Below are positions 25,408 through 60,882 of a stretch of 64,000 bases of DNA, piece after piece. Source of the stretch: an uncultured bacterium (GTDB lineage Bacteria; Arandabacterota; Arandabacteria; JAGLYR01). The position numbers and the translations under genes were made by a program. Under the pieces are notes generated by a model that was given only the letters and a program-made list of their open reading frames with translations, was not told the DNA's origin and searched no databases. Positions within the stretch are counted from its first letter, which is position 1. Each line of letters opens with the position of its first letter. The stretch lies in contig CAZSXU010000024.1 in the NCBI GenBank assembly GCA_964610505.1, forward strand, positions 91 to 64,090. The letters are read 5' to 3'.

Positions 25408-27906
25408 CTATCGAATCAGTACCATCTTTCGCGTCAGGTTCTCGGCGCCGACGTCCAGGCGATAGAAGTACACGCCGGTCGAGACTTGGGCGCCCCGGTT
25501 GTCCTTGCCGTCCCATTCAACCACCCACTCCCCCGAGATGATCGAATTCTCGATGAGGGTCACGACCTGCCGTCCGGTGACGTCGAAGACGCGAAGCGTG
25601 GCCCTTGCACCGGATCCCGGTACGGAAAGCCGGATGGTCGTTTGCGGATTGAAAGGATTGGGTACGTTTTGCCCCAGCGCGATGCGGCCCGCCCTCGAGA
25701 CCTCCGTTTCGGCCGCGCCCGTCGTGGCCTCCTGGTACGTGACCAGGGAGAAGTCATCCACGCCGGCCTCTACAATCGAGCCGTCGCCCTCGTCCGCCGC
25801 GATGAATCGGAACTGCACCTGGTCGTTGAAGTCGACATAATCTTCGAGAGAAAACTCGACCCTGTCCCACTCGTGTGTACTTGCGGAAGTGGTTTGCAGG
25901 GTATCCCACGTCGCCCATCCGTCGTCGCTGACGTGGACCCTCCACACGTCGGTGCCCGCCGCGGAGCCGGTGTCGTTCGCGTACCAGTAGTGGTACCGGA
26001 CCGCCGCGTTGGTGTACATGGTGAGATCAAAAACGGGCGACACGAGCGTCGTCCGGCCGCCGTCCACGTCGTAGCTCCCCTGGCCGGAGCCCGCCGCGCA
26101 CTGGGTGATATAGGCGTCCACTCCCGGATCGGGCGTGTGATCGTCCTCGGGCTGGGCCTCGGTCCACTCGGGATCGCATCGCTCCCAGATCCCGGTCGTC
26201 GCGCCGTCGCCGGTCGCGCCCACGGTCCAACCCTTGTGCGTCTCGAAGTCGTCCTCGAAAAAGGCGGTGATGGTTCCGACGAAAAAGGTATACACGTCCG
26301 CAGGAGCGTTCTTCGGATTCATCGCCCGATTCCCGTCCGTGTCTTCCGCCACGATGTAGTACTCGACGAACGTCCCGCCCGGCTGTGGGGGGATGAAGGC
26401 TTCGTATTCATTCGGGGTTCCGGTTGCCGAGAGCTCCAACGTGTTCTCGCCCGCTCCGGTCGAATACCGGACCAGGAGAGAATCCGGATTCAAGGTGCCC
26501 GCGGCCACGATTTCGGTCACGACCCGGTACGGTTGGATGCTGTCCTCGGTGTTCTCCAGGGGGGTATCATGAAGGATCGAGAGCGAGAAAGGCTCGGCCG
26601 CCGTGGCTAGGAACGCGACCGCCGCCTTGACGGAGCGCTCGGCCAGAGTCGAGGAGTTGTAGCTCAGCCCCACCACGTCGCTCGTCGTATGAATGTACGG
26701 ACTGTAGCTGCCGCTGTCCTCGAAGAAGAGAACGGCGTCGTAGCCGTGGGCCCAGAAGGACGCGTGATCGCTGCTGGCGCCGCCGGGAAGATAACCGTCC
26801 ACGATAGGCAGATCCGACACGTAGAGGGCGGCCACATCTTCGAGCACGTCGCGCATCCACTGGGAGTTGGTGTTGCTGATGATGTCCAGATCCAGTGCGT
26901 CTCCGCCGGCCAGGTATCCGATCATGTCCACCGATATCATCCCGACGATGTCTTCGCCGCGTGCGGCCGCGTCCGCCGCGTACCCCTCACTTCCGTAGAG
27001 TCCCAGTTCCTCGCCGCCGAAGGCGATGAATACCAGCGTGTAGCTGAATTCGTAGTTGCTGAGAACCCGGGCGCATTCCAGTGCGCAGACCGTTCCGGAC
27101 GCGTTGTCGTCGGCACCGGGGCAGTTGTTCTGGTCGGACGTGATGGAGTCGTAGTGGCCGCCGATAACGAATACCTTGTCGGGGTCTCCCGAGCCCGGAA
27201 TGACGGCCACAACGTTGTCCTTGTAGATGGAGCTGAAATTGTGGAAATACACGCTGTCGATGCCGTACGATTCGAACTCGGCCTTGATCCATTCGGCCGC
27301 GGCCTGGCAGCTGTCGTGCGTGGCGTAGCGCGTGACGAAATCCTGCAAGCGCTGTACGCCGGCGTCTACTGCGGCGCTGGACACCTCATTGACCATTGCC
27401 TGAATGGCGGGGTCGGCCGCCTTGGCCGCCGTTCGAATCACCGGTCTCTCCACCGGCGCGGGTCGGATGGGCCGCATGAAGACCCGCGCGATCTCGAATC
27501 CCTCCGCCGCAAGGGAGTGAATCTCCCCCTCGGTTGCCTCCACGACGGCGTCGAACCCGACGTCATCGAATCCGACGGCATAGAGAATGCGGGCCCTGGT
27601 TTGGAGATCGGAGAGGCGAGCACGGTCCCTTACCCCGACGGTGTAGTACGTCTTTCCCTCGACGGACGCATCCAGGATCCGCCAGTCCACGTCCAACGCG
27701 TCCATTCGCTCGATGTCCCGAGGTCCTGCAACCACCAAGAGGTACCGTTCCATGTCCCGAACGACATTCACGTCTTCGGACAGAAGCCGGGTGGCCGTCC
27801 GAATCTCCGGACCGTTGACAACGATGAGAGCGTTTTCCACAGGCATCGCCGCGATGACCGGCGAAATCGGCATTGCGAAAAGCGCCAAAGCCAGAAGCGT
27901 ACGCAT
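25408..27906 (-). CDS. M28-family zinc aminopeptidase with shared ~175-aa jelly-roll-like domain and Por_Secre_tail/FlgD-Ig-like C-terminal sorting domain
   Basis: Signal MRTLLALALFAMPISPVIAA. M28 core VVAVIPGSGDPDKVFVIGGHYDS...GADDNASGTVCALECARVL...FIAFGGEELGLYGSEGY. A middle FFEDDFETHKGWTVGATGDGATTGIWERCDPEWTEAQPEDDHTPD... domain is shared with the giant C25 protein. The C-terminus LGQNVPNPFNPQTTIRLSVPGSGARATLRVFDVTGRQVVTL...WDGKDNRGAQVSTGVYFYRL...RKMVLIR is the sorting domain. Start is ATG 27906 with a GGAAGGA SD. The track ORF extends to 28227. Confidence 0.85.
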   Translation of the reverse strand: MRTLLALALFAMPISPVIAAMPVENALIVVNGPEIRTATRLLSEDVNVVRDMERYLLVVAGPRDIERMDALDVDWRILDASVEGKTYYTVGVRDRARLSDLQTRARILYAVGFDDVGFDAVVEATEGEIHSLAAEGFEIARVFMRPIRPAPVERPVIRTAAKAADPAIQAMVNEVSSAAVDAGVQRLQDFVTRYATHDSCQAAAEWIKAEFESYGIDSVYFHNFSSIYKDNVVAVIPGSGDPDKVFVIGGHYDSITSDQNNCPGADDNASGTVCALECARVLSNYEFSYTLVFIAFGGEELGLYGSEGYAADAAARGEDIVGMISVDMIGYLAGGDALDLDIISNTNSQWMRDVLEDVAALYVSDLPIVDGYLPGGASSDHASFWAHGYDAVLFFEDSGSYSPYIHTTSDVVGLSYNSSTLAERSVKAAVAFLATAAEPFSLSILHDTPLENTEDSIQPYRVVTEIVAAGTLNPDSLLVRYSTGAGENTLELSATGTPNEYEAFIPPQPGGTFVEYYIVAEDTDGNRAMNPKNAPADVYTFFVGTITAFFEDDFETHKGWTVGATGDGATTGIWERCDPEWTEAQPEDDHTPDPGVDAYITQCAAGSGQGSYDVDGGRTTLVSPVFDLTMYTNAAVRYHYWYANDTGSAAGTDVWRVHVSDDGWATWDTLQTTSASTHEWDRVEFSLEDYVDFNDQVQFRFIAADEGDGSIVEAGVDDFSLVTYQEATTGAAETEVSRAGRIALGQNVPNPFNPQTTIRLSVPGSGARATLRVFDVTGRQVVTLIENSIISGEWVVEWDGKDNRGAQVSTGVYFYRLDVGAENLTRKMVLIR

Positions 27907-28087
27907 GAGCGGTTCCTTCCTTGTGGGTTTGTCTGGACGTGACAAGACGCAAAATAACTTGCACTGTCTAATATAGCACATTTGGAGGTTTGCATCCAAC
28001 AAAACGCCGGGCCCGAACCCGAGCTTCGTCGCGCGAAACGGGCGCCTCACAAAGTCGAATCCCGTTTTGGAGTACGCCGCCGATCTC

Positions 28088-29575
28088 TCAGTCGCGGTTT
28101 CTTTCCCGCCACAACAGACCCGTGGTTCCGATCCACAGGATGGCAAGAACGCCGAAGCCGACCTGCCAGAATCGTCCGGCCGGAGTTGAGAGGGCGGTCG
28201 TCGCAAGGAAGAAGTTCTTGTGCTCAAATCCCCAGTACTGGAGAAGCGGTGACCACTGCCAGGCCCACCGCATGTCCGGATAATACGGGCTTCTGAGGAT
28301 GCCGTAGTGCGCCTTCATAACGGAGTAGTAGTCGTTGAAGCTCACGAGGATACCCGAGAAGGCGATCACGGCCGACAGGACGGCGACGACCAAAACGATC
28401 CAAGCCCCTGTCGGTCGATCCCGTCTCTCGTCAATCCAGTATCCGAGGGGCAGGACCAGAAGCGGAAGCACCGGCACGAAGAAGCGCGGGCCCCAGCACC
28501 ATCCGCCTTCCCACGACCACCATTTGGCGTGAAACAAAGCCGGGATCAGGAGCATGGAGAAGAGAAAGACCGAGAGTGCGCGGTCCCTCTTCCAACGGAG
28601 GATGAGAACGACCAGGGACAGGAGCGCGAGCGGGAAGTACAGAAACAGCCCGCGTCCGGGAGAGATCAGGAGTCCGATGACGCCGGACAGGAAAGGATGT
28701 GTGAAGTCGATCTTGGAGGAGTAGCCGGTTTCAAAGATCGTCCCGAATCGATACGCGTTGTAGTAGAGAATGATGGGGAAGAGGGAGATCAGTCCCAGTC
28801 CGAGAGTTGCCAGGTGCCGCAGACGGTCTTGCTTCGTCCACACGAGTACCGCGGCGAAAGGAAGAGCCGCGGCCAGGAATACGGCGTTCGCCGCCTTGAT
28901 CAGCAGGGCGGCGGAGAGAGCGACGCCGGCCCAGAAGAGCGAGCGCGAAGAGGCATCTTGCCGGTGCTTCAGCATCAGATACAGGAACAGCAGGAGCGCC
29001 AGGGCGGACATGGGCTCGCCGAAAAAGGTCTTCGAGTAGTGCCAGAGGGGAGAGGCGGCCCCGAGGATGAAGGCGAGAGCGAGGGACGTGCCTCGCCCGA
29101 GTCCCAGGGTGAGACTCACGGCATAGAGAAGCCAGACCACGCCGGCGGCGACGATCGCATTCGTCAGGGAAACACCCCAGATTCGAACGAACGTGTTGAA
29201 CTCGCGCGGGTGAAACAGCTTGAGTGGACGCTGGAATACGGGCTCGCTTGTCGCGGGGGCGATCTCCGCGACTCCCCGCCCCAGGAGGTAAAAGGGGACG
29301 GCCGCCAGCGAAGGCCCCAATCCGTAGATGGCGTATCGCCGCCCGTCCCGCCCGATCTCGGTGTGCCAGAAGGACCAGTCCCCCTCCTGTGTCGGGAGCG
29401 CCGGATCCCCGCGTTCGACCAGGCCCTCCGTCACCAGATACATCAACGTGCCGTCGGGTGTGAAGATGTGGCCGGACGTGGTGAGGAGATAGAAGAGGGC
29501 AAACCAGAGGAACAGAATCAGGCCGATTCTCCCCGGACCCCGGGGATCGCGCGTGTCGAAGCTCTCCTTTGGCAT
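28088..29575 (-). CDS. Polytopic membrane glycosyltransferase-like protein (GT39/GT83 ArnT/PMT-type fold, inference)
   Basis: 495 aa with ~12 TM helices, aromatic-rich loops, and an N-terminal periplasmic loop containing a VTEGLVERGD acidic motif. The family assignment is by overall topology only. Confidence 0.7.
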   Translation of the reverse strand: MPKESFDTRDPRGPGRIGLILFLWFALFYLLTTSGHIFTPDGTLMYLVTEGLVERGDPALPTQEGDWSFWHTEIGRDGRRYAIYGLGPSLAAVPFYLLGRGVAEIAPATSEPVFQRPLKLFHPREFNTFVRIWGVSLTNAIVAAGVVWLLYAVSLTLGLGRGTSLALAFILGAASPLWHYSKTFFGEPMSALALLLFLYLMLKHRQDASSRSLFWAGVALSAALLIKAANAVFLAAALPFAAVLVWTKQDRLRHLATLGLGLISLFPIILYYNAYRFGTIFETGYSSKIDFTHPFLSGVIGLLISPGRGLFLYFPLALLSLVVLILRWKRDRALSVFLFSMLLIPALFHAKWWSWEGGWCWGPRFFVPVLPLLVLPLGYWIDERRDRPTGAWIVLVVAVLSAVIAFSGILVSFNDYYSVMKAHYGILRSPYYPDMRWAWQWSPLLQYWGFEHKNFFLATTALSTPAGRFWQVGFGVLAILWIGTTGLLWRERNRD

Positions 29576-32338: not shown

Positions 32339-33280
32339 ATGGGCATGAGAATCGAAATCATGAGAAGAATGCGGCGGGACAAAACGCTGATCTCAACGGT
32401 GATCGTTCTTCTCTCAGCGGTTCTTCTCCAGGGATGTGGTGGGATGAAGCTGGAGAGCCGTTGGCGGGATCGGGAGATCTCGATCGATGGAATGATCGGA
32501 AGTCCCGGCGAGGTCGACCGGGAGTGGGCGGGTGCCAGAACGGCCCTGGAAGACGAGAACGTTTCGGTCGGCCTGGTCAATGACGAAGAGTATCTGTATA
32601 TGAGCCTCGTTCTGGGAGACGCGTCATTCGGGCGTCAAGTGGTGGGAATGGGGTTTACCCTCTGGTTCGACCCCGATGGAGGGAACAACCGGGAGTTCGG
32701 AATTCGGTTCCCCCTCGGAGTGGGCCAGAGCGGGTTTCCCCTGGCGGGGTCCGGCATGCCTTCCTTCGCAAGACCCGATGTGGGAAGTGACCGGGAGGAT
32801 GGAGACTTCGAGGCGCATCTTCAGGAGACCCTGGAGGCAATGACGCAGCTGGAGATTCTCGGACCCGGGGAAAGGGACCGCCGGAAGCTCCATGTTCACG
32901 ATGCGGGCGGGATCGACGTGGAAATGGGAACATCCAATGGAGCGTTGGTCTACGAGCTGAGGGTTCCCCTTGCCGGGATGGTCGATCATCCCTACGCGAT
33001 CGGCGCAAAACCGGGAAGCGTTATCGGTGTGGGATTAGAAACGCCCAAGATCGACGTGAGTGCGATGAGAGATGAAATGAAAGGTAGGGGCCGTGGGGGC
33101 GGCGGGCGGCCGGGTGGTGGTATGCGGGGCGGTGGCAGGCCGGGGGGTGGAATGCGGGAAATGCGTCCCGAAATGCCGGAACCACTGAACGTCTGGGGCA
33201 AGATTCGCCTGGCTTCGGTCGAGGAGTCACCTTCGGCGATCAACGAGACAGGTGCGTCGGTCATTTCGGCGGAGATGTAG
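32339..33280 (+). CDS. Hypothetical lipoprotein (Gly/Arg-rich C-terminal tail)
   Basis: The lipobox is TLISTVIVLLSAVLLQGC. No family was recognised. The C-terminus is a GRGRGGGGRPGGGMRGGGRPGGGMREMRPE repeat. The start is ambiguous (ATGs at 32339, 32345, 32360, 32369). Confidence 0.6.
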   Translation: MGMRIEIMRRMRRDKTLISTVIVLLSAVLLQGCGGMKLESRWRDREISIDGMIGSPGEVDREWAGARTALEDENVSVGLVNDEEYLYMSLVLGDASFGRQVVGMGFTLWFDPDGGNNREFGIRFPLGVGQSGFPLAGSGMPSFARPDVGSDREDGDFEAHLQETLEAMTQLEILGPGERDRRKLHVHDAGGIDVEMGTSNGALVYELRVPLAGMVDHPYAIGAKPGSVIGVGLETPKIDVSAMRDEMKGRGRGGGGRPGGGMRGGGRPGGGMREMRPEMPEPLNVWGKIRLASVEESPSAINETGASVISAEM

Positions 33281-33338
33281 CGGGTTTGAATCGTCATCCG
33301 GGTTTCAGACTCGGGTGCGCAGAGAAAGGGAGGGTATC

Positions 33339-34475
33339 ATGAGACGCGTGAAGTTCCTGATCGCTGGTTTGGCTCTAGCGGGTTTGATTGCGGCAGCGGC
33401 GGGCTGCAGCGAGTCGGAGGGCGAGTCGGATCCGATGGCGCTTCTCTCATCGTCCAGCGCGGCGGTGGCCGCGGAGGCATCCGCATGGATCCCGGACATC
33501 TCTGAGATCACCACGGCGCTCGGTCTCACGGTGGCTGAAGCGGAGGCGCTCGAGACTGCCCTTGACGGTGTTCGAGAAAAGGCTGGTACGATGGGGCGGG
33601 GCATGCACGAAGGGCGCCGCGGCGGAAGGCGAGGTCACGGCTTCGGCCAGGGAGGAGTCGATTCACCGCCAGACGGCGAACCGCCTTTCTTCGGTTTCCT
33701 CGAGGCATGCTCGGAGATCCTCGAGCCGGCCAAGTTTGCCGAGCTGCTGAATCTCATGGCTGAACGGCATGAGGCGCACAGGGATGCGATGGCCGAACAT
33801 CGGGGAGAACGGCCGGGCCGAGGTAGGGATCGCGGATTCCAGGGAAGGGGACAGGGGCCGCGCGGGGCCGGCAGAGTTGATGATCTCGCCGAGGCGCTGG
33901 ACCTCACGGATGAGCAGAGGACGGCCGTCCAGGGTGTGTTCGAGGACATGCACGAGGCTTTGCAGGAACACCGGCAAGCGTGTCGCGACAGCGAGACGGC
34001 CCGGGGAGAGGGCCGGGAGCAGGCGCAGGCAATTCACGAGGAGTTCCGGGAGGAGCTGAAAGACATCCTCACGGCCGAGCAGCTGGAACAGATGGACGCG
34101 CTTCGCGAAGAGCATCGCACCGATCGGCAGGAAGACATGCAGGCCCGAGCCGGGGAGCACATGGATCGGGCGGTTGAATTCATGACCCGGATCCTGGATC
34201 TGGATGGTTCCCAGGCCACGGGTATTGAGGACATCATGGACACGGCGCACGAGCAGGTCCGGGCTCTCCACGAGGCCGTGCGAAATGATGAGATGGAGCG
34301 TGAGGCAGCCCATGAGCAGGGCGAGCAGATTCGGGATGAATCGGTCTCGGCGATTCGCGGCCTACTCAACGAGGACCAAGCGATCGTGTTTGAGGCTCTT
34401 TCGAACCTTCTCCCGCACCACGGCGCCGGGTTTGGACACGGCCCGGCCCGTGGGTTCCGAGGTTCCAAGCACTAG
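33339..34475 (+). CDS. Periplasmic LTXXQ-motif (Spy/CpxP-family-like) lipoprotein
   Basis: The lipobox is LIAAAAGCSE. Two LTXXQ motifs are present (DLTDEQRTAVQGVFEDMHEAL and ILTAEQLEQMDALREEH) in a long helical Glu/Arg/His-rich protein. A strong AAGGGAGGG SD lies before ATG 33339. The track ORF starts at 33252. Confidence 0.7.
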   Translation: MRRVKFLIAGLALAGLIAAAAGCSESEGESDPMALLSSSSAAVAAEASAWIPDISEITTALGLTVAEAEALETALDGVREKAGTMGRGMHEGRRGGRRGHGFGQGGVDSPPDGEPPFFGFLEACSEILEPAKFAELLNLMAERHEAHRDAMAEHRGERPGRGRDRGFQGRGQGPRGAGRVDDLAEALDLTDEQRTAVQGVFEDMHEALQEHRQACRDSETARGEGREQAQAIHEEFREELKDILTAEQLEQMDALREEHRTDRQEDMQARAGEHMDRAVEFMTRILDLDGSQATGIEDIMDTAHEQVRALHEAVRNDEMEREAAHEQGEQIRDESVSAIRGLLNEDQAIVFEALSNLLPHHGAGFGHGPARGFRGSKH

Positions 34476-34658
34476 GAACCGGGACGTTCACCGGTTCCGC
34501 TGCGGCCGATACGACGCCGGCCGCACGCGGGTGGGGGTGGGGCAGCCGGCGAAAACCCTGCCCCCTTCTTCTGCAACCACGGATTGTGCCAACGGACGAG
34601 GGGCGATGGTCGCGTCGCCCCTCACGGTTTCTCTCTCGGTCTCGATGTGACTTGCGGT

Positions 34659-34910
34659 TCAGTCCTTCAGATCCTTCTTCCTTCGTTTGACCTCCGCCTT
34701 GGCGAGCTTCTTCTCAATCTTGGCCTGTCGCTTCGAGGCGTCCTTAGCGGCCGGAGGAGAAGAGGGAAGAACTCCTGCCGGTGCGGCGGGCCGAGTGCGG
34801 CGGCGCCTTCGGCTCACGACCCAGGACGCGAGCAGCTTGCCGAAGCCGGCGATCACCCCGGTGACGAATACGATCAGAACCCATTTGCCGATATCCCAGA
34901 ACCCGTCCAC
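34659..34910 (-). CDS. Small membrane protein (single TM helix, highly basic C-terminal tail)
   Basis: MDGFWDIGKWVLIVFVTGVIAGFGKLLASWVV followed by RRRRRT...KKLAKAEVKRRKKDLKD. There is no homology; only ORF structure supports it. Confidence 0.4.
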   Translation of the reverse strand: MDGFWDIGKWVLIVFVTGVIAGFGKLLASWVVSRRRRRTRPAAPAGVLPSSPPAAKDASKRQAKIEKKLAKAEVKRRKKDLKD

Positions 34911-35227
34911 TCTTCTACCTCATGGGCCAGGGTACCACAAGAATGGGGATCCCTCAGCATGTTTCCACAGGTTTCGTCTTTCTGGATGCGCCGGCGAAGA
35001 CCCGCGTGGATGAACTGCGTGTCACCTGGAGGGATGGAACGACATCGGGTGGAGTTTCTTCAGAAATAACAACTTCCAAGCGATCGGGCGCGCAAAAACC
35101 CGAAACCTGTTGATTCTTAAGGTCCAATGTGCTACCCTTGAAGCAGTGATCGATTGGGTTTTGCTCTTTAAGAACCTTCGAGACCGTTTCCGTAATTATC
35201 TGGTCGCTGCCAGAGAGGGAGGGATCC

Positions 35228-38200
35228 ATGCGCTGTGCTACGATTCTGTCCATCGTACTCGTCGGTCTGCTGTGTCTTGGGGTGGTGCCCGCCGCCGCCT
35301 CGGAGATGACTCACACAGTGATCTTCGACCCCGATCGGATGTCGATCGAAAGCCGAGAAGGGTTTGATGTGGTCCGGGTCGGGGAATGCCGGTTTGAACT
35401 GGTAGCCGGCAAGCCCATGATTCCGGTGCGAACGATCCACTTTTCCATCCCCGCCGGGATGGTCGCGACGGCCCTGGAGATTCGCTCCCTCGAGCAAATC
35501 GAGCTGGACGCCGACCTCTACCTCCACCCGTCTCAACCCCCCGTTCGTCTGAGCGACAAGACCACTCGCCAATTCATCGGCCCGGACCCGGTCGTCTATG
35601 AATCCGCGGAGCCGTATCCGGGAAGTGTGGCGAAGCTGATGACCAATGGGCACATGGGCGGTTACGCGGTGGTGGGCGTTCAGGTTTATCCCGTGGAGTA
35701 CCGGCCCGCCCAGCGAAAGGTCTATCTGAACCGGCGGATCGAGCTGGCTCTGATTCTGGGGCCGGCCGAGGAGCCGGCGGGAATCATCACCGGTCGTACG
35801 GAGGCGGGCGAAAGGGCCGTCATGGACCGGGTGCGCGCGCTGGTGGTCAATCCCGAACAGGTAGCCGAGCACATCGGTCCGAGGCCCAAGGGCGACCGGC
35901 AGAGCATCGTCGAGTACGCCATCATCACCGGCTCGAGCTACGTCGACGAGTTTCAGCCTCTAGCCGACTGGAAGACCAAGAAGGGCGTTCCTACGGAGAT
36001 TTTCACCACGGATTGGATCTACGCCAACTACACGGGTACGGATAACCAGGAAGAAATCCGGAACTTCATCAAGGACTACGAAGCCACCGAGGGGCTGGTC
36101 TACGTTCTCCTGGGTGGGGACGACGACGTCGTTCCGGCGAGAATCGCCTGGGACGATCTCGGCTACGACGGCATCCGGGCCGATCTCTACTACTCCGACA
36201 CCGATGGGAGCTGGAACTGGGACGGCGATGGGTACTGGGGCGAACATCCGGCCGATGACGTCGATATGTACGGCGATGTCTACGTAGGCCGGGCGCCGGT
36301 CAACACCTCTTCCGAGGCGACGAACTTCGTGGACCAGATTCTGATGTACGAAGCCTCGAGCGCCGGCGCGACCCTGCCGACGGATTTTCAGGAAGACATG
36401 CTGTTCATGGCCGAGATCCTCTGGGACGATCCCGATCCCTATACGAACGGCGGCATCGCCAAGGATATGATTGACACCGGCTACGTACCTTCGCGTTTTG
36501 ACCCGATCACCAAGCTCTACGAAGCCGACGGCAACCTGAACTACACCTCGGCGATGAATGCCATGAACGACGGGCCCGGAATCACGAACCACTGCGGGCA
36601 CTGCAACTACAACGTGATGAGCATCGGGCCGAGCGCGCTCTACAACAGCGACATGGACGCCCTCACCAACGGTTCGCGCCAGGGCATTTACTACACGATC
36701 GGGTGCTGGGCGGCCGCCTTCGACTACGACAATATCGCCGAGCACTACGTCAACAACACGGGCGGTGGCGGAGTCGCCTTCGTCGGCAACAGTCGCTACG
36801 GCTGGGGGTGCCCGGGATATCCGGGTGAGTGCGTATCGGATCTCTACGATCAGGAGTTCTTCCGGGCCCTGTTCACGGACGATCTCTACAACCTCGGCAT
36901 CACGCACGCCGATGCGAGGGATTACTACGTGCCGGATTCCCAGTCCGATGCCTACATGCGGTACGGACTCTACGAGCTGAACGTGCTCGGGTGTCCCGAG
37001 ATGCCCATCTGGACTCGGACGCCGCAAACGCTGGCCGTGAGTCATCCGTCGACCCTGCCGATGGGATCGTCCTACTTCACCGTCCAGGTGAACACGGCGA
37101 AGGCCGCCATCGTGGGCGCGACCGTGTGTCTCATGAAGGACGATGAGGTCTACGAAGTCGATGTTACGGACGGAAGCGGGCAGGTCACATTCGAACCGAC
37201 ACCCGCCACCGGCGGCACCATGACGGTGACGGTTACCATGCATGACTACCTGCCGTACGAGGGCGAGGCGACGGTCGAGGTTGGAACGCCTCCCTCGGCA
37301 CCGACCGGCCTTGCGGCGGTCGGCGGCGACGGTCAGGTGACGCTCTCGTGGAATACAAACCCGGAGCCCGACATCGACTACTACATCATCTACCGTGCGA
37401 CCACACCGGCCCCGGCCGGATCACTCACCACGGTGATGTCCCCCGGGTATCTCGACACCGACGTGGTGAACGATACGACCTACCACTACCGTTTGAGGGC
37501 GGTTGATACCGAGGGGGATAAGAGCGGCTACTCCAACGAAGCGAACGCAACTCCGCAGAAACCGCCCGTGATCTTCATCACACACACACCGCTTACGGAC
37601 ACGGATGATTCCAACAACCCGTATCCGGTTGTGGCCACGATCACGGCGACCGAAACGTCCCTGGACCCGGACTCCCTCCTCGTGATGTACGAAACGCAGA
37701 CGCGAGTCTGGGAATCCGTCGTCATGACCGGCACGGGCACCCCCGACGAGTACCGGGGCGATATCCCGGCTCAGCCGTGCGGGACGCTGGTCGACTACTA
37801 CATCCTGGCGGTGGACATGAACAGCAACCGCGAGACCCATCCGGACCTGGCGCCGGCAAGCACGCATTCCTTTGCCGTCAACTTCACGGTGGTCTTCGAA
37901 GATGATTTCGAGACCGATAAGGGGTGGACGGTGGGAGATGCGGGCGACGACGCGACGACCGGAATCTGGGACCGCTGCGACCCTGAGTGGACCGAGGCCC
38001 AACCCGAGGACGATCACACGCCCGATTCCGGTGTGCGGGCCTACATCACGGATTGCGACGCGGGAACGAGCCAGGGGTCCTACGACGTGGACGGCGGCAA
38101 GACCACTGTGTTGTCGCCGGTGTTCGATCTCTTGGACTATGCCAGTGCGTCGGTCCGGTACTACCGGTGGTACTCCAATGACACGGGCTCGGAGCCCGGC

Positions 38201-39670
38201 ACCGACTACTGGGTGGTTCAGGTCTCGGATGACGGTTGGACCACGTGGGCCACGCTGGAGAACACCAACGTGACGAACCGCAGTTGGCTCATGATGCAGT
38301 TTGACGTCGGCGGCTACGTGGATCTGACGGGCACCGTTCAGTTCCGCTTCATCGCCAGCGATGAAGATCCGGGATCGCTTGTGGAAGCGGGCGTGGACGA
38401 CTTCCTGTTGATGGGGTGTCCAGATCTCACCGATGTGGAACCCCCGACGGTGACCGTCGTGGATCCCAACGGCGGGGAGGCGCTGACGGGCGGCCAACCG
38501 TACGATATCGAGTGGACGTCATCGGACAACGTCGGTGTCGTCTCGACGACCATCCTTCTCTCGACCGACGGCGGCGGGTCGTATCCGACGATGGTTGCCT
38601 CGGGATCCCTGACGTCCCCCTACAGCTGGGACGTTCCGAACGAGGACCAGGCGAGCTGCCGGATCAAGGTAACGTGCGTGGATGCGGCGACGAACGAGGG
38701 AAGCGATGAGTCGGATGCGAATTTCGCCATCGTCTGGCAGGATTACGAGGCCCCCACCGTGACCGTCGTGGATCCCAACGGCGGCGAGGCGATTCAGGGT
38801 GGAGATCCGTACGACATCGAATGGACATCCTCGGACAACGTCGGTGTCGTCACGACCACGATTCTTCTCTCCACAAACGGTGGATCCACGTATCCGACGA
38901 CCATCGCGAGCGGCTCGCTTGCATCACCATATACCTGGGACGTGCCGGATGTGGATGAGCCGTCCTGCCGAATCCGCGTGGTGTGCGAGGACGCCGCAGC
39001 GAATCCGGGCAGCGACGATTCGGACGCGGATTTCTCCATCCTTCCCATCGATCACGAGCCTCCGACGGTGACCGTCCTCGATCCCAACGGGGGCGAGGAG
39101 ATCTTCGGCGCTGGTCCCTATACGATTCGCTGGACGTCGGATGACAACGTCGGCGTCACGCTGACGGCCGTTTTGCTCTCGGTGGACGGCGGTCTCACGT
39201 TCCCCGACACGCTTACCGCCGGGGGGCTGGACTCCGCTTGGGTGTGGGACGTACCGGATGTGGACGAGACGAGCTGCAGGGTCAAAGTCCTCTGCTGGGA
39301 CGCGGAATCGAACGAGGGGAGCGATGCATCGGACGGCGGTTTCACGGTGATCAGTACGGTGACGGCGGTGGCCATGCTGGAAGCGGCTCCGGCGGAACTG
39401 GTGCTTCGCCAGAACCGGCCGAATCCGTTCAACCCGGTGACGGAGATCGAGTTCGGTCTTCCCGAGACCGGGTCGGCACTTCTCGAGGTCTACAACGTGA
39501 ACGGTCGATTGATTACGACACTGGCGGATGGTGTGTTCAACGCCGGCTACCACCGAGTGGTCTGGAGAGGCACGGATGCATTCGGCGCCGAGGTCTCGAG
39601 CGGGATGTATTTCTACCGGCTCGTGACGGAAGAGAAGGTGTTGACGAAGAAGATGTTGATGCTCAAGTAG
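35228..39670 (+). CDS. Giant secreted multidomain peptidase: C25 (gingipain-like) catalytic domain, FN3/Ig-like domains, shared jelly-roll domain, 3 x ~102-aa Ig-like repeats, Por_Secre_tail/FlgD-Ig-like sorting domain
   Basis: Signal MRCATILSIVLVGLLCLGVVPAAAS. C25 blocks are VYVLLGGDDDVVPARIAWDD...DLYYSDTDGSWN...GDVYVGRAPVNTSSEATNFVDQILMYE, ITNHCGHCNYNV (His) and YYTIGCWAAAFDYD (Cys). VVFEDDFETDKGWTVGDAGDDATTGIWDRCDPEWTEAQPEDDHTPD... is shared with the M28 protein. Three TVTV(V/L)DPNGGE...IEWTSSDNVGVV...C(R)I(K/R)V repeats follow. The C-terminus is RQNRPNPFNPVTEIEFGLPETGSALLEVYNVNGRLITTL...GMYFYRL...KKMLMLK. Confidence 0.9.
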   Translation: MRCATILSIVLVGLLCLGVVPAAASEMTHTVIFDPDRMSIESREGFDVVRVGECRFELVAGKPMIPVRTIHFSIPAGMVATALEIRSLEQIELDADLYLHPSQPPVRLSDKTTRQFIGPDPVVYESAEPYPGSVAKLMTNGHMGGYAVVGVQVYPVEYRPAQRKVYLNRRIELALILGPAEEPAGIITGRTEAGERAVMDRVRALVVNPEQVAEHIGPRPKGDRQSIVEYAIITGSSYVDEFQPLADWKTKKGVPTEIFTTDWIYANYTGTDNQEEIRNFIKDYEATEGLVYVLLGGDDDVVPARIAWDDLGYDGIRADLYYSDTDGSWNWDGDGYWGEHPADDVDMYGDVYVGRAPVNTSSEATNFVDQILMYEASSAGATLPTDFQEDMLFMAEILWDDPDPYTNGGIAKDMIDTGYVPSRFDPITKLYEADGNLNYTSAMNAMNDGPGITNHCGHCNYNVMSIGPSALYNSDMDALTNGSRQGIYYTIGCWAAAFDYDNIAEHYVNNTGGGGVAFVGNSRYGWGCPGYPGECVSDLYDQEFFRALFTDDLYNLGITHADARDYYVPDSQSDAYMRYGLYELNVLGCPEMPIWTRTPQTLAVSHPSTLPMGSSYFTVQVNTAKAAIVGATVCLMKDDEVYEVDVTDGSGQVTFEPTPATGGTMTVTVTMHDYLPYEGEATVEVGTPPSAPTGLAAVGGDGQVTLSWNTNPEPDIDYYIIYRATTPAPAGSLTTVMSPGYLDTDVVNDTTYHYRLRAVDTEGDKSGYSNEANATPQKPPVIFITHTPLTDTDDSNNPYPVVATITATETSLDPDSLLVMYETQTRVWESVVMTGTGTPDEYRGDIPAQPCGTLVDYYILAVDMNSNRETHPDLAPASTHSFAVNFTVVFEDDFETDKGWTVGDAGDDATTGIWDRCDPEWTEAQPEDDHTPDSGVRAYITDCDAGTSQGSYDVDGGKTTVLSPVFDLLDYASASVRYYRWYSNDTGSEPGTDYWVVQVSDDGWTTWATLENTNVTNRSWLMMQFDVGGYVDLTGTVQFRFIASDEDPGSLVEAGVDDFLLMGCPDLTDVEPPTVTVVDPNGGEALTGGQPYDIEWTSSDNVGVVSTTILLSTDGGGSYPTMVASGSLTSPYSWDVPNEDQASCRIKVTCVDAATNEGSDESDANFAIVWQDYEAPTVTVVDPNGGEAIQGGDPYDIEWTSSDNVGVVTTTILLSTNGGSTYPTTIASGSLASPYTWDVPDVDEPSCRIRVVCEDAAANPGSDDSDADFSILPIDHEPPTVTVLDPNGGEEIFGAGPYTIRWTSDDNVGVTLTAVLLSVDGGLTFPDTLTAGGLDSAWVWDVPDVDETSCRVKVLCWDAESNEGSDASDGGFTVISTVTAVAMLEAAPAELVLRQNRPNPFNPVTEIEFGLPETGSALLEVYNVNGRLITTLADGVFNAGYHRVVWRGTDAFGAEVSSGMYFYRLVTEEKVLTKKMLMLK
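38441..39362 (+). repeat. Intragenic tandem repeats, 3 x ~306 bp (~80% nt identity), encoding the three Ig-like modules of the giant C25 protein
   Basis: Repeat starts are at ~38444, ~38753 and ~39059. The opening of each unit (gaccgtcgtggatcccaacggcgg...) is nearly identical. Confidence 0.7.
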
Positions 39671-39700
39671 GCTGCGGAAGGGCGAGAAGTCTAAACCCTC

Positions 39701-39836
39701 GGCCACAGATTACACAGATAGGTTCGGGGCGATGCGATACGCATCGCCCCGAAAGTCTTTCCCCTTGTATTCTTGTGGTCCCCGTGGTGGAGGCTCTTGG
39801 TTTTTCAAATCTGCGAAGATCTGTGAAATCTGTGGC
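39701..39836. repeat. REP/MITE-like intergenic element, second full copy: GGCCACAGATTACACAGATAGG ... CGGGGCGATGCG-atac-GCATCGCCCCG hairpin ... ATCTGTGAAATCTGTGGC
   Basis: Read directly between convergent genes (giant peptidase + / hypothetical -). The hairpin stem is the same as in the 19456-19560 copy. Confidence 0.6.
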
Positions 39837-40891
39837 TAGCCCGGGTTATTCACCGACAATCCCAGGACACCCACGGCGGAGTTGCCCTCGAATACAATGG
39901 GAATCAGGAATAGGCCTTTTTGCGGCACGAGGATCGTCCGACAGACGAGAGTGCTCACGGGATGGGAAACAGCGAGGTTCTTGAGAAGGCCGATGCCGTC
40001 ATCTGCATTTCCCTCTTGGGCGGCCAACGCACTCTGAACCGGGGCCGGGTCGGGCGTGTCGCCACCCGATCGCAGGACCTCAACCGAGGCCCGGTACCGG
40101 GTCAGGAACTCCTCATACGGCTCCCTCCCACCGGAGAGGGAGATCGCCAACTCCCGAACGAAAGCCTTGCGGGTGGGGCTCCGGGTCAGCGAGCCTCGAA
40201 CGGATTCGGAAACCTCACGATCGGCCAGAAGATAGTCGATGCATATACCCACGGCTTCGTCGTCGCGCCCCGTAACAAGAGCCTTGTAGAACTTCTCTCT
40301 CCTCTCCAGATGCTTGAAGTGGAAATCGATGGCCTGCTTCTGAAAGAGAGGCTCGAGCGGATTCTTCAGCCGAAGGGCGAGGATGAACGTTCGTGCAGCG
40401 GAGTTCAGGGTGGAGGACAGGGTGGTTTCGGTCGCGTCCCCTGAGGAATCCGGCACGGTCGTCGATTTCAGCGTCCGAAGACCGGACGCGACCAGGTCTC
40501 CGACGCGCTGGTTCCGCGTACCCAGGTACTCCAGGGCGTCCGCAGCCGAAGCGTAGGAACCCTTCGATATCGCGCGCTCGGCCAATTCTTCCACGAGGTC
40601 CCGGGGAGGATCAAAAGGTGCGGACAGAATCCGGTCGCCGTACCGGTCGCGAATGTCCCGAGCCGTTTCCTCGTACGCCGTTCGCTCGGCTTCGTCCACG
40701 GCTTCGGGATCCAGGAGCGTCCGCGGCAGCTCGCGGTCGATCAGACTCTGGACTCCCCGGTCCATGGCCAGGCGCAGCTTGGATTTCGGATGGATCAAGT
40801 CTCTGACCGCCAGAAAATCGGCGGCGAAGACCGCCCCGGCGAGGATTTGAATCGCCATTTCCCCTGCTGCTTCGGCGCCTGTGGTTCGCAT
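39836..40891 (-). CDS. Hypothetical protein (no recognisable family)
   Basis: The ORF is long and has coding-like composition. The preferred start is ATG 40891 (MRTTGAEAAGEMAIQIL...), which puts it directly downstream of the small HMA-like ORF. The track ORF extends to 41002. Confidence 0.55.
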   Translation of the reverse strand: MRTTGAEAAGEMAIQILAGAVFAADFLAVRDLIHPKSKLRLAMDRGVQSLIDRELPRTLLDPEAVDEAERTAYEETARDIRDRYGDRILSAPFDPPRDLVEELAERAISKGSYASAADALEYLGTRNQRVGDLVASGLRTLKSTTVPDSSGDATETTLSSTLNSAARTFILALRLKNPLEPLFQKQAIDFHFKHLERREKFYKALVTGRDDEAVGICIDYLLADREVSESVRGSLTRSPTRKAFVRELAISLSGGREPYEEFLTRYRASVEVLRSGGDTPDPAPVQSALAAQEGNADDGIGLLKNLAVSHPVSTLVCRTILVPQKGLFLIPIVFEGNSAVGVLGLSVNNPG

Positions 40892-40971
40892 GCTCACGTC
40901 CGGTTCTCCGTCGATCTCGAAGGCTCCCGCATTCTCCTTGGAGAATGCGACGGAGCCGTTTGCGATCCACC

Positions 40972-41226
40972 TCAAGTGTCGACGACACGGGGTATGAAAC
41001 ATCCGTTCTGGCCCGTCGGCAGTTTGGAGATGACTTCCAGAAGATCTTGTCGAGAGATCTTCTCGGGGTCATGCTCGACCTCGATTCGGTTGTCGAGGTG
41101 CTGGGAGAAGCGCGTCACACCGTCCAGAGATTCCACCGTGTCCTTGATCTCCTGAACGCAAACTCCGCACTGAAAACCGCAGCCCGGAGGTATTTCACCG
41201 CAATCGAGATCTACGATCGTCCTCAT
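40972..41226 (-). CDS. Small heavy-metal-associated (HMA)-fold-like protein with atypical Cys-rich loop (DCGEIPPGCGFQCGVC)
   Basis: MRTIVDLDCGEIPPGCGFQCGVCVQEIKDTVESLDGVTRFSQHLDNRIEVEHDPEKISRQDLLEVISKL follows the HMA beta-alpha-beta-beta-alpha-beta pattern (compare ...CxxC...IEKALxxLPGVxxVxVNLxxxKAxVxYDPxKVSxxDLxxAI), but with an expanded cysteine loop. ATG is at 41226. The track ORF (to 41415) has an unsupported N-terminal extension. Confidence 0.5.
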   Translation of the reverse strand: MRTIVDLDCGEIPPGCGFQCGVCVQEIKDTVESLDGVTRFSQHLDNRIEVEHDPEKISRQDLLEVISKLPTGQNGCFIPRVVDT

Positions 41227-50654: not shown

Positions 50655-50948
50655 ATGAAGTTCTGGAGAACCCCCCTAGATCAAGATCGCCTCAAGGTTC
50701 CCCACGGGGAAGTCCACATCATCAAGGACCGCTGCAAAGGATGTGGGTTCTGTGTAGAGTATTGCCCCCGGGGGGCTCTTGAAATGTCGGACGAGTTCAA
50801 CGTCAAAGGCTACCACCCCCCCCGAGTCACCGAAGAATCTCTCTGCGTGAATTGCAACCTCTGCGAAATGCTCTGTCCCGAATTCGCGATTTTCTGTGTG
50901 CTCAAGGATGAACCGGAATCCGGGGAGGTGAAGCAAGTTGAAGGCTGA
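50655..50948 (+). CDS. 2-oxoacid:ferredoxin oxidoreductase delta subunit (2x[4Fe-4S] ferredoxin)
   Basis: CKGCGFCVEYCP and CVNCNLCEMLCP motifs. ATG 50655 is preceded by GGAGG. Confidence 0.9.
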   Translation: MKFWRTPLDQDRLKVPHGEVHIIKDRCKGCGFCVEYCPRGALEMSDEFNVKGYHPPRVTEESLCVNCNLCEMLCPEFAIFCVLKDEPESGEVKQVEG

Positions 50949-52095: not shown

Positions 52096-52961
52096 AAGTG
52101 GATGCGCCGGTGAGAGAACACCCGATGGAAGGCCTTCTCAGGATGGACCGGATTCCGCACATCTGGTGCCCGACCTGTGGAATCGGAACGGCGCTGACCG
52201 CGTTTGCGAGCGCTCTGGAGGAACAGGAGGTCTCCCCGGATTCGGTCTCCATCGTTTCGGGCATCGGTTGTACGGGGCGGGTGGCAGGCTACACCAAGCT
52301 CGATTCCTATCACACGACACACGGTCGGGGGATTCCGTTTGCCGTGGGACTCCATCTGGCCAACCCATCTCTGAAGGTCGTGGTTTTCAGCGGCGACGGA
52401 GACCTGGTAGGGATCGGCGGGAATCACTTCATTCACGCCGCCCGGCGGAACGTGGATATCACCGTGGTCTGCGTCAACAACTTCCTCTACGCCATGACGG
52501 GAGGGCAGGTGGCCGCGACGAGTCCCGTCACGGCAAATACATCCACCTCTCCCTACGGCAATTTCGAGCAGCCTTTCAGCCTGCCCCTCTTGGCGCAATC
52601 TTGCGGCGCCGTGTACGTGGCCCGGTGGACGGCTCTTCACATCCGGCGGATGACCAAGGCGTTTGGTGAGGCGCTCCAGAAGAAGGGGTTTTCCTTTGTG
52701 GAGGTCATCGCTCCCTGCTCGACGCTCTACGCCAGACGCAACAAGCTGGGCACGGGGCTCGACCTGATGAAATTCTATCACGACAACAGCGAAATCCGGC
52801 ACGGGGCCGATCCCAACGACCTGGACATCGGGTTTCAGCAGAAAATCGTCTGCGGCAAATTCGTGGATATTGAGAAGCCGACTTTCCTCGACGCGATGAA
52901 CGACGGATACCGCCGCGCATTCGGGGACAGGTACGAAGAATACGGAGGAGCCCATGCCTAA
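52092..52961 (+). CDS. 2-oxoacid:ferredoxin oxidoreductase beta subunit (TPP-binding)
   Basis: WCPTCGIGTALTAFA...GIGCTGRVAGY...VVFSGDGDLVGIGGNHFIHAARRNVDITVVCVNNFLYAMTGGQ is the TPP/GDG motif. ATG 52092 overlaps the alpha stop (ATGA) and has an AGGAGG SD. Confidence 0.9.
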   Translation: MKVDAPVREHPMEGLLRMDRIPHIWCPTCGIGTALTAFASALEEQEVSPDSVSIVSGIGCTGRVAGYTKLDSYHTTHGRGIPFAVGLHLANPSLKVVVFSGDGDLVGIGGNHFIHAARRNVDITVVCVNNFLYAMTGGQVAATSPVTANTSTSPYGNFEQPFSLPLLAQSCGAVYVARWTALHIRRMTKAFGEALQKKGFSFVEVIAPCSTLYARRNKLGTGLDLMKFYHDNSEIRHGADPNDLDIGFQQKIVCGKFVDIEKPTFLDAMNDGYRRAFGDRYEEYGGAHA

Positions 52962-57160: not shown

Positions 57161-57198
57161 GCATCGTCGGGCCGGAATGTGAAACCCCTGAGCGCGGG

Positions 57199-58350: not shown

Positions 58351-58371
58351 TTCAGCAGGAGGTGAATACGG

Positions 58372-60873: not shown

Positions 60874-60882
60874 GGGAGAACC

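What the first reader, a model, noticed from the sequence alone, without database searches (positions are those of the whole stretch)
35228..39670. 1480-aa C25 gingipain-like giant with three ~306-bp intragenic tandem DNA repeats
The catalytic C25 domain is followed by a jelly-roll domain, then three Ig-like modules encoded by tandem DNA repeats of ~80% nucleotide identity (38441-39362), then the sorting tail. Intragenic repeats of this length and identity promote slipped recombination, so module number probably varies between strains and could tune stalk length or antigenic variation.
Basis: seen in the sequence. Interest (0 to 1): 0.55.

Follow-up and report, generated by a model that had tools for sequence, protein, structure and literature searches.

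The report
Secreted C25 protease with three-module stalk
This is an ordinary, intact gene for a large secreted gingipain-family cysteine protease of an uncultured (probably Eisenbacteria-like) bacterium, and its three tandem Ig-like modules are old, diverged duplicates, so the module count differs between related species but is unlikely to slip between strains.

Summary
The ORF 35228-39670 (+), 1480 aa, is real. It reads: signal peptide, C25 propeptide, C25 catalytic domain (His458/Cys493 aligned to the gingipain R dyad), C25 Ig-like domain, FN3, an Ig-like domain, a probable MAM/CBM-type jelly roll, three 103-aa Ig-like modules and a T9SS type A sorting domain.

The repeat is real (z = 12-16 over in-frame background). 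Its period is 309 nt, not 306. Unit identity is 72/63/62 % nt (73/56/58 % aa), not about 80 %; only the best 150-nt stretch reaches 81 %. Synonymous sites are saturated (dS >= 1, dN/dS 0.01-0.4) and the longest shared exact run is 26 nt. These are ancient duplicates kept by purifying selection, which makes them poor substrates for slippage or homologous recombination.

The only near-identical variant found (1 aa different) also has three modules. Orthologues at 66-82 % identity carry 1, 2, 3 or 7 modules. In them the module next to the sorting domain is conserved and the internal modules expand. Length therefore varies on a species scale, not a strain scale.

The module family is very common (about 30,000 cluster representatives, up to 56 copies per protein). 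I found no evidence for antigenic variation. Verdict: a new member of a known kind, of low interest.

The parts
35228..39670 (+). Complete gene for a 1480-aa secreted C25 (gingipain-family) cysteine peptidase
   Evidence: ORF. GC3 0.80. Identical to database protein P0121. The start is conserved in orthologues, which begin MR.AT....
35228..35299 (+). Sec-type signal peptide (aa 1-24, MRCATILSIVLVGLLCLGVVPAAAS|E)
   Evidence: Read from the sequence. Inferred from the usual n-h-c pattern; no signal-peptide predictor was run.
35354..35758 (+). Propeptide_C25 (aa 43-177), the N-terminal prodomain
   Evidence: PF08126, 28.9 bits against a cut-off of 22.
35915..36997 (+). Peptidase_C25 catalytic domain (aa 230-590)
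   Evidence: PF01364, E 1.2e-56, 193 bits. phmmer hit to gingipain R 4ief_B and 1cvr_A.
36599..36601 (+). Codon of the putative catalytic His458 (motif NHCGH)
   Evidence: Aligned with the GH of gingipain R. His in 120 of 121 homologues.
36704..36706 (+). Codon of the putative catalytic Cys493 (motif TIGCW)
   Evidence: Aligned with the catalytic Cys in the VAC motif of gingipain R. Cys in 121 of 121 homologues.
37022..37258 (+). Peptidase_C25_C Ig-like domain (aa 599-677)
   Evidence: PF03785, 34.1 bits against 25.
37265..37570 (+). Fibronectin type III domain (aa 680-781)
   Evidence: PDB 3mpc Fn3-like, E 4e-4. Pfam fn3, 23.9 bits against 25, just below threshold. Absent from orthologues P0004 and P0007.
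37571..37882 (+). Unassigned all-beta, probably Ig-like, domain (aa 782-885)
   Evidence: No Pfam hit. Strands in the low-confidence AF2 model. Conserved in orthologues and in the M28 paralogue cassette.
37883..38431 (+). Probable MAM/CBM-like beta jelly-roll domain (aa 886-1068)
   Evidence: InhA-like_MAM below threshold. Foldseek hits of a low-confidence model to MAM, CBM4, gingipain K1/K3 adhesin and InhA2. A profile search against PDB found nothing.
38432..38740 (+). Module 1 (aa 1069-1171), Big_7-like Ig-fold module of the internal type with an Asp-box-like motif (LSTDGGGSY)
   Evidence: Big_7 24.7 bits against 24.1. AF2 pLDDT 97. Closest to module 1 of P0002, 79 % aa.
38741..39049 (+). 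Module 2 (aa 1172-1274), internal type
   Evidence: 72 % nt and 73 % aa identity to module 1. Kre9_KNH 25.4 bits against 24.6. Among the seven P0002 modules it ties at 76 % with modules 2 and 6, and it branches at the base of the internal-type clade.
39050..39358 (+). Module 3 (aa 1275-1377), the module next to the sorting domain (terminal type)
   Evidence: 63 and 62 % nt identity to modules 1 and 2. Clusters with the last module of P0002 and P0004 and with the single modules of P0005, P0006 and P0008.
39359..39667 (+). Linker plus T9SS type A C-terminal sorting domain (aa 1378-1480; FlgD_ig/Por_Secre_tail)
   Evidence: TIGR04183 31.2 against 23. Scanned alone: FlgD_ig 30.6 against 27 and Por_Secre_tail 28.4 against 27.
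25741..26607 (-). Paralogous Ig-like + MAM-like cassette inside the neighbouring M28 peptidase gene (25408-28227, -), followed directly by the same kind of sorting domain, with no stalk modules
   Evidence: 59 % identity over 291 aa to aa 774-1062 of the C25 protein; sorting domains 43 % identical.

Best explanation
The gene encodes a Sec-exported cysteine peptidase of family C25 that carries a T9SS-type sorting signal. The likely course is as follows. The signal peptide takes the pro-enzyme to the periplasm. The C-terminal type A sorting domain directs it across the outer membrane. By analogy with gingipains, that domain is then cut off and the new C-terminus is fixed to the cell surface, or the protein is released. 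The N-terminal prodomain keeps the His458/Cys493 catalytic domain latent until it is processed. The FN3, Ig-like and MAM-like jelly-roll domains probably bind substrate or ligand; the same Ig + MAM cassette is also fused to an M28 peptidase 7 kb upstream. The three 103-aa Ig-fold modules lie directly before the sorting domain, that is, nearest the cell surface, and most likely act as a spacer that holds the enzyme away from the membrane. The 3 x 309-nt DNA repeat is simply the footprint of these three modules. The modules are ancient duplicates under purifying selection and are not a currently unstable repeat. Module number changed during divergence of the clade (1-7 copies) by gain or loss of internal modules, while the module next to the sorting domain stayed fixed. 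What is shown: the domain content, the conserved catalytic dyad, the repeat geometry and divergence, the copy numbers in relatives, and the Ig fold. What is inferred: secretion route, surface anchoring, spacer function and prodomain latency.
For: Domains and thresholds. Catalytic dyad aligned to gingipain R and conserved in 120-121 of 121 homologues. Repeat geometry. Divergence: 72/63/62 % nt, third-position identity 0.46-0.53, dS 1.0-1.6 (NG86) or >2 (ML), dN/dS 0.01-0.41, longest exact runs 26/15/11 nt. The module tree has two types: window m1 pairs with P0002 m1 (79 %), window m3 pairs with P0002 m7 (67 %), and P0002 m2-m5 form a lineage-specific block of 80-89 % aa identity. The same pattern appears in an independent syntenic pair, P0016 (6 modules) and P0039 (4), 81 % identical, whose terminal modules pair with each other. 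Copy numbers of 1, 2, 3 and 7 occur among orthologues 66-82 % identical in the N-terminal part, and P0003 is a positional orthologue. The near-identical variant P0001 (1 aa different) also has 3 modules. The module folds as a nine-strand beta-sandwich (pLDDT 97), with best PDB matches to a bacterial Ig domain, CbhA FN3-like modules and the HPI S-layer. The module family is common and usually tandem: 29,773 cluster representatives at E <= 1e-3, up to 56 matched stretches in one protein. Four proteins in the window end in the same kind of sorting domain, three of them peptidases. T9SS sorting-domain cleavage and surface attachment are described in PMC4804311, PMC5562754 and PMC10202324 (abstracts listed).
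Against: No T9SS machinery gene (PorU, PorV, SprA, GldKLMN) was recognised in the 64 kb, and the review abstracts listed describe T9SS as a Bacteroidota system, so secretion and anchoring in this lineage are extrapolated. Protease activity, specificity and prodomain function are untested. The spacer role rests on position and fold only; the modules could also bind ligands. Stability within the population is supported by only two near-identical sequences. The other contigs carrying the gene are 100 % identical over 16-24 kb and are probably re-assemblies of the same population. No read-level data could be examined.
Confidence: 0.8

Rival explanations
1. One reading: the three DNA repeats are an active recombination or slippage substrate, so module number differs between strains of this organism and tunes stalk length or provides antigenic variation. 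This is the behaviour described for Periscope Proteins.
For: Module number does vary among orthologues (1, 2, 3, 7). P0002 has internal modules 86-89 % identical in protein, and P0016 has a pair at 82 % nt with a 32-nt exact run, so expansions have happened repeatedly in the wider clade. Units 1 and 2 reach 81 % locally, with a 26-nt exact run.
Against: Overall unit identity is 62-72 % nt, with saturated dS. The unit 1/unit 2 duplication predates the split from the P0002 lineage. The Periscope screen requires at least 80 % repeat identity, and rapid variation was tied to the highest identities (PMC8201768). Recombination drops 200-400-fold at about 8 % divergence (PMC4824099). The one near-identical variant has the same count. 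No data here address immune pressure or antigenic variation, and the habitats of the samples were not determined.
Confidence: 0.07
2. The modules are mainly ligand-binding units (carbohydrate, protein or Ca2+-dependent adhesion) whose number sets avidity, rather than a passive spacer.
For: Strong purifying selection acts on every unit (dN/dS 0.01-0.41). There are 17 invariant positions, many of them acidic or Asn (D1, E16, D32, D84, N88, D92), plus an Asp-box-like S-x-D-x-G-x-T-[YFW] motif. Structural neighbours include accessory modules of glycoside hydrolases (CbhA X1, the CelAly B1 domain).
Against: No binding site was identified. The closest folds are generic linker or Ig modules. The paralogous M28 protein has no modules but keeps the MAM-like cassette, which suggests that binding resides in the cassette. 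The family occurs in arrays of up to 56 copies, typical of stalks.
Confidence: 0.2
3. The protein is the T9SS sortase (PorU-like) of this organism rather than a secreted cargo protease.
For: NCBIfam T9SS_sortase PorU gives a partial hit (E 1e-24) over the C25 domain.
Against: The score is 86 bits against a curated cut-off of 420, and only about 310 of 1095 model positions are covered. The protein also carries a full cargo-type sorting domain and a gingipain-type prodomain.
Confidence: 0.02
4. The three-module array is an assembly artefact, with a longer array collapsed or a chimeric join.
For: The source is metagenomic, and repeats are a classic cause of collapse.
Against: The units differ at 28-38 % of positions, so short reads place them unambiguously. 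The same 4443-nt gene was recovered, with no nucleotide differences, on an ENA and a Logan contig, and the same protein (or a 1-aa variant, P0001) is on record from JGI and NCBI. The frame is intact, and each unit has its own orthologue in P0002.
Confidence: 0.03

Closest known systems
Gingipains RgpB/RgpA/Kgp of Porphyromonas gingivalis (MEROPS family C25; T9SS cargo)
   Same: N-terminal prodomain, caspase-like C25 catalytic domain with a His/Cys dyad, an Ig-like domain after it, and a C-terminal T9SS sorting domain. Like RgpA and Kgp, it has beta-jelly-roll accessory domains between the catalytic part and the sorting domain. The K1 and K3 adhesin domains are among the fold matches.
   Different: Sequence similarity is very remote (phmmer E 1.6e-4 to RgpB). 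The accessory part is FN3 + Ig + MAM-like + 3 Big_7-like modules, not haemagglutinin/adhesin repeats. The host is an uncultured non-Bacteroidota lineage (nearest named relatives are Cand. Eisenbacteria). Specificity is unknown.
Uncharacterised 'C25 family cysteine peptidase / T9SS type A sorting domain-containing protein' of Candidatus Eisenbacteria, Latescibacterota and Zixibacteria genomes
   Same: This is direct family membership. There are 644 homologues at E <= 1e-5, typically 1130-1160 aa, with Propeptide_C25 + Peptidase_C25 + FlgD_ig. The nearest are 66-82 % identical with the same accessory domains.
   Different: This copy has three stalk modules, where its nearest relatives have 1, 2 or 7.
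Periscope Proteins (SasG, Aap, Rib, Sgo_0707, CdrA; PMC8201768)
   Same: A functional domain at the N-terminal side, an anchoring signal at the C-terminus, and a tandem array of about 100-aa Ig-type domains in between. The array length differs among homologues.
   Different: Repeat identity here is 56-73 % aa and 62-72 % nt, below the 80 % used to define the class. No variation was seen between near-identical sequences. The array is short (3 units). Variation appears only between orthologues 66-82 % identical.
Pfam Big_7 (PF17957) / Kre9_KNH (PF10342) bacterial Ig-like domains, as in giant repeat adhesins and S-layer proteins
   Same: Each module scores near the gathering threshold for Big_7 or Kre9_KNH and folds as an Ig-like beta-sandwich. 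Relatives occur in long tandem arrays.
   Different: Scores are borderline (22.9-25.4 bits). The module has its own conserved signature, DPNGGE...W...DN.GV...LS.DGG.T[YF]...W.VP...R[IV]KV...D...N.G.D.SD..F.

Membership tests
Peptidase family C25 (gingipain family) | Match to the family profile above the curated threshold | tested here: met
   PF01364, 193 bits against 23, covering 370 of 374 model positions.
Peptidase family C25 (gingipain family) | Catalytic His and Cys in the conserved G-H and x-C motifs | tested here: met
   His458 and Cys493 align with the GH and the catalytic Cys of gingipain R 4ief_B. They are conserved in 120/121 and 121/121 homologues.
Peptidase family C25 (gingipain family) | N-terminal prodomain and an Ig-like domain after the catalytic domain | tested here: met
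   PF08126, 28.9 against 22; PF03785, 34.1 against 25.
Peptidase family C25 (gingipain family) | Cysteine endopeptidase activity | not testable with these tools
   Needs an enzyme assay.
T9SS type A cargo | C-terminal sorting domain that matches the curated model | tested here: met
   TIGR04183, 31.2 against 23. PF18962, 28.4 against 27, and PF13860, 30.6 against 27, when aa 1378-1480 are scanned alone.
T9SS type A cargo | N-terminal Sec signal peptide | tested here: inconclusive
   A typical n-h-c pattern ending AAAS|E is visible in the sequence. No predictor was available.
T9SS type A cargo | T9SS machinery present in the same genome | tested here: inconclusive
   None was recognised among the roughly 30 ORFs of the window scanned with Pfam. 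The rest of the genome is not available.
PorU T9SS sortase | Full-length match to NF033707 above the cut-off | tested here: not met
   86.2 bits against 420; only model positions 364-673 of 1095 are covered.
Periscope Proteins | [quoted passage not shown] | tested here: met
   Three units of 103 aa. The criterion is from PMC8201768.
Periscope Proteins | Repeat identity of at least 80 % (high DNA identity that enables intragenic recombination) | tested here: not met
   73/56/58 % aa and 72/63/62 % nt; dS saturated.
Periscope Proteins | Repeat-number variation among closely related strains (proteins at least 90 % identical) | tested here: inconclusive
   Only two sequences fall in the 90 % cluster, and both have 3 modules. 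Variation is seen only among orthologues 66-82 % identical.
Big_7 bacterial Ig domain (PF17957) | Profile match above the gathering score and an Ig-like fold | tested here: met
   Modules 1 and 3 score 24.7 against 24.1. Module 2 scores 22.9 for Big_7 but passes Kre9_KNH at 25.4 against 24.6. The fold is a beta-sandwich at pLDDT 97. The sequence match is borderline.
MAM / InhA-like MAM jelly-roll domain | Profile match above threshold, or a confident structural match | tested here: inconclusive
   PF20773, 15.6 against 26.9; 4 of 9 orthologues hit it, best E 4e-4. The fold hits to MAM and CBM4 come from a model of pLDDT 59. The profile search against PDB was empty.

The most novel reading that the evidence does not exclude
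In this uncultured Eisenbacteria-like clade, surface proteases that carry a T9SS sorting domain have an evolvable stalk. The module next to the sorting domain is fixed, and internal modules are gained and lost (1-7 copies in one orthologue group, 4 against 6 in another). Some lineages, such as P0002 with internal modules 86-89 % identical, may currently be in the rapidly varying 'Periscope' regime. That would extend length-variable surface display to T9SS cargo enzymes of an uncultured Gram-negative phylum.
Probability: 0.2. Interest if true: 0.35.

Novelty: new member of a known kind. Interest (0 to 1): 0.15.

Why it matters
It matters little beyond annotation. The gene adds a well-defined domain map, with a conserved catalytic dyad, to the large and uncharacterised group of C25 peptidases in uncultured FCB-group bacteria. 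It shows that this genome reuses one Ig + MAM-like cassette and one type of sorting domain on different peptidase classes (C25 and M28, with the sorting domain also on an S8 subtilase), which points to a protein-degrading lifestyle. The comparison of orthologues gives a clean example of stalk length evolving by turnover of internal modules while the anchor-proximal module stays fixed. It also gives a caution for sequence-only screening: tandem repeats at 60-70 % DNA identity in a high-GC3 gene reflect conserved protein domains and do not indicate instability.

Tried and rejected
1. The DNA of the 7-module orthologue P0002 and of P0039 could not be fetched because the sample file was too large. 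The nucleotide identity of their internal modules, and so how recent the expansion is, remains unknown.

It found none of the close relatives.

3. The genome-collection scan returned only relatives at 34 % identity or less (Eisenbacteria, Cloacimonadota and Zixibacteria genomes), so it was no help for copy-number comparison.

4. I first took the seven further contigs carrying the same protein as independent evidence for a stable count. The two I could fetch are 100 % identical to the window over 16-24 kb, so they are the same population or the same data and were discounted.

5. The AF2 model of aa 782-1068 from a 9-sequence alignment was poor (pLDDT 59). The profile search against PDB sequences found nothing. 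The jelly-roll assignment therefore stays tentative.

6. The promoter and terminator scan of 34400-40000 found none. Rfam and tRNA scans of the window found nothing.

7. A literature search for Eisenbacteria together with type IX secretion returned no paper.

8. The PorU-sortase reading and the assembly-collapse reading were considered and rejected.

9. The 1478-aa ORF at 59197-63633 (-) was checked as a possible paralogue. It is an antisense shadow ORF.
Full report
**Observation**

Its codon-position GC (GC3 0.80) matches the other real genes of the window. Its translation is identical to database protein P0121. P0001 differs from it at one residue, G449A.

Tandem Repeats Finder reports a 309-nt period from 38441. 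The repeat finder reports three copies spaced 309 nt apart. In frame, the units are 38432-38740, 38741-39049 and 39050-39358, which is aa 1069-1171, 1172-1274 and 1275-1377.

Ungapped pairwise identity is 71.5, 63.4 and 61.5 % at the DNA level and 73, 56 and 58 % at the protein level. In-frame 309-nt windows from the rest of the gene are 29.9 +/- 2.7 % identical, so the repeat is 12-16 SD above background. Offsets of 309 and 618 nt are the only self-similarity in the gene. 81 % is reached only in the best 150-nt stretch between units 1 and 2.

**Anatomy**

Pfam and NCBIfam give the following:
- Propeptide_C25, aa 43-177.
- Peptidase_C25, aa 230-590 (E 1e-56).
- Peptidase_C25_C Ig-like domain, aa 599-677.
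- Three Big_7/Kre9_KNH-like modules.
- A C-terminal FlgD_ig / Por_Secre_tail / TIGR04183 type A sorting domain, aa 1398-1476.

An FN3 domain occupies aa 680-781 (PDB 3mpc E 4e-4; Pfam fn3 just below threshold). An unassigned all-beta domain occupies aa 782-885.

Sequence evidence is below threshold (InhA-like_MAM 15.6 bits against 26.9; 4 of 9 orthologues hit it). A profile search against PDB sequences found nothing. The AF2 model is weak (pLDDT 59). Even so, its Foldseek matches are consistently MAM domains (RPTPmu, meprin, neuropilin), CBM4, InhA2 and the K1/K3 adhesin domains of Lys-gingipain. I accept 'MAM/CBM-like jelly roll' as probable, not proven.

The catalytic dyad is present. His458 (NHCGH) and Cys493 (TIGCW) align with the GH and the catalytic Cys of gingipain R. 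They are conserved in 120/121 and 121/121 homologues. The PorU sortase model scores 86 bits against a cut-off of 420, so this protein is cargo and not the sortase.

**The module**

A 22-sequence alignment of modules gave an AF2 model with pLDDT 97.2. It is a nine-strand beta-sandwich. The best PDB neighbours are a 'bacterial immunoglobulin domain B1' (9kvu), the FN3-like X1 modules of CbhA and the Deinococcus HPI S-layer protein. 'Ig-like' is therefore supported.

The module has a characteristic signature that includes an Asp-box-like S-x-D-x-G-x-T-[YFW] motif and many invariant acidic or Asn positions.

A profile search of 1.84 billion cluster representatives found 29,773 proteins at E <= 1e-3 and 12,070 at E <= 1e-10. 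Single proteins have up to 56 matched stretches. This is a very common tandem-array module, and three copies is a modest number.

**Age of the repeats**

Third-codon-position identity between units is only 0.46-0.53. dS is 1.0-1.6 (NG86) or above 2 (ML), which is saturated. dN/dS is 0.01-0.41. The longest exact runs shared between units are 26, 15 and 11 nt.

The DNA similarity is therefore what is left when three old copies of a protein domain are held by purifying selection in a codon-biased, GC-rich gene. Homologous recombination declines log-linearly with divergence, 200-400-fold at about 8 % (PMC4824099). The Periscope Protein study links strain-level length variation to repeats of at least 80 % identity, with the most extreme variation at the highest identity (PMC8201768). 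At 28-38 % divergence this array is outside that regime.

**Relatives**

The nearest named homologues come from Candidatus Eisenbacteria and Latescibacterota metagenome-assembled genomes. Within the orthologue group (66-82 % identity over the N-terminal 1068 aa), an HMM built from the three units counts:
- 7 modules in P0002.
- 3 in the window.
- 2 in P0004.
- 1 in each of P0003, P0005, P0006, P0007 and P0008.

P0003 is a positional orthologue. The unannotated 388-aa gene downstream of the window gene is 56 % identical to the gene in the same place and orientation in two Eisenbacteria genome loci.

A neighbour-joining tree of 28 modules separates two types. The terminal type comprises window m3, P0002 m7, P0004 m2 and the single modules of P0005, P0006 and P0008. 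The internal type comprises the rest. Window m1 pairs with P0002 m1 (79 %). Window m2 branches at the base of the internal-type clade and matches P0002 m2 and m6 equally (76 %). P0002 m2-m5 form a lineage-specific block of 80-89 % identity. So the m1/m2 duplication predates the split of these lineages, and later change occurred by gain or loss of internal modules.

A second, independent pair shows the same pattern. P0016 (6 modules) and P0039 (4 modules) are syntenic and 81 % identical, and their last modules pair with each other. In P0016 the module DNA identities are 59-82 %, with exact runs of up to 34 nt.

**Strain-level evidence**

This evidence is thin. The 90 % cluster contains only P0001 and P0121, both 1480 aa with three modules. 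P0121 is recorded on seven contigs. The two I could fetch are 100 % identical to the window over 16 and 24 kb, so they are the same population or data and not an independent test. No read data were accessible.

**Context**

Four proteins in the window end in the same kind of sorting domain:
- An unassigned 775-aa protein (8008-10335, -).
- An S8 subtilase (20488-22389, +).
- An M28 peptidase (25408-28227, -).
- The C25 protein itself.

The M28 protein carries a 291-aa Ig + MAM-like cassette that is 59 % identical to aa 774-1062 of the C25 protein. In M28 the sorting domain follows this cassette directly, with no stalk modules. This suggests that the cassette is a reusable binding unit and that the modules are an optional spacer.

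No T9SS machinery gene was recognised in the window. The genes immediately upstream encode a two-component system and an LTXXQ protein. Nothing links them functionally to the protease.

**Mechanism**

What follows is inferred by analogy with gingipains and other T9SS cargo (PMC4804311, PMC5562754, PMC10202324; abstracts listed). The protein is exported by Sec. The sorting domain takes it across the outer membrane. The sorting domain is then removed and the protein is attached to the surface or released. The prodomain is removed to activate the His/Cys protease. Because the modules directly precede the sorting domain, they would lie nearest the membrane and set how far the enzyme and its binding cassette project. 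A ligand-binding or Ca2+-dependent role for the modules cannot be excluded.

**Verdict**

It is wrong about mechanism and time scale for this gene, and nothing supports antigenic variation. The protein is a new member of a known kind, an uncharacterised C25 / T9SS-type cargo peptidase with Ig-like stalk modules, and it is of low interest.

Noticed in passing
window 25408-28227 (-), cassette at 25741-26607: The M28 peptidase gene 7 kb upstream shares a 291-aa Ig-like + MAM-like cassette (59 % identity) and the sorting domain (43 %) with the C25 protein, but it has no stalk modules. One accessory cassette is thus fused to two unrelated peptidase classes in the same genome.
   Followed up: partly
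window 8008-10335 (-), 20488-22389 (+), 25408-28227 (-), 35228-39670 (+): Four proteins within 32 kb end in the same FlgD_ig / T9SS-type C-terminal domain, and three of them are peptidases (S8, M28, C25). No T9SS machinery gene was recognised in the window.
   Followed up: partly
window 39836-41002 (-): A 388-aa protein with no Pfam match lies directly downstream of the C25 gene. It is conserved (56 % identity over 345 aa) in the same position and orientation next to the orthologous C25 gene in two Eisenbacteria genome loci (L002, L004). It may be a functional partner of unknown role.
   Followed up: partly
window 59197-63633 (-): This 1478-aa ORF, almost the same length as the C25 gene, is an antisense shadow ORF (GC1 0.80, GC3 0.62). 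It lies opposite the real + strand genes 58996-60873 and 61282 to the window end (GC3 0.80-0.81). It is not a paralogue.
   Followed up: yes
window 50938-60873 (+): A cluster encodes pyruvate:ferredoxin oxidoreductase-like, HdrA-like (Pyr_redox_2 + Fer4), CCG-domain (HdrB/D-like) and FlpD (MvhD-like) proteins. This suggests an anaerobic, ferredoxin-based metabolism.
   Followed up: no
L018 3980-8293 (P0016) and the P0039 contig: A second C25 orthologue pair has a different N-terminal half and a TatD - methyltransferase - C25 - DUF5362 neighbourhood. It carries 6 and 4 modules at 81 % overall identity, again with a distinct conserved terminal module. In P0016, modules 1 and 3 are 82 % nt identical, modules 4 and 5 are 75 %, and modules 2 and 4 are 70 %. 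The 1/3 and 2/4 similarities may reflect duplication of a two-module block.
   Followed up: partly
window 32339-33280 (+) and 33252-34475 (+): Upstream of the C25 gene lie a 313-aa protein with no Pfam match and a Gly/Arg-rich tail, and an LTXXQ (CpxP/Spy-like) periplasmic protein. Both sit downstream of an OmpR-type response regulator and a HAMP histidine kinase, and may form an envelope-stress module. No link to the protease was tested.
   Followed up: no
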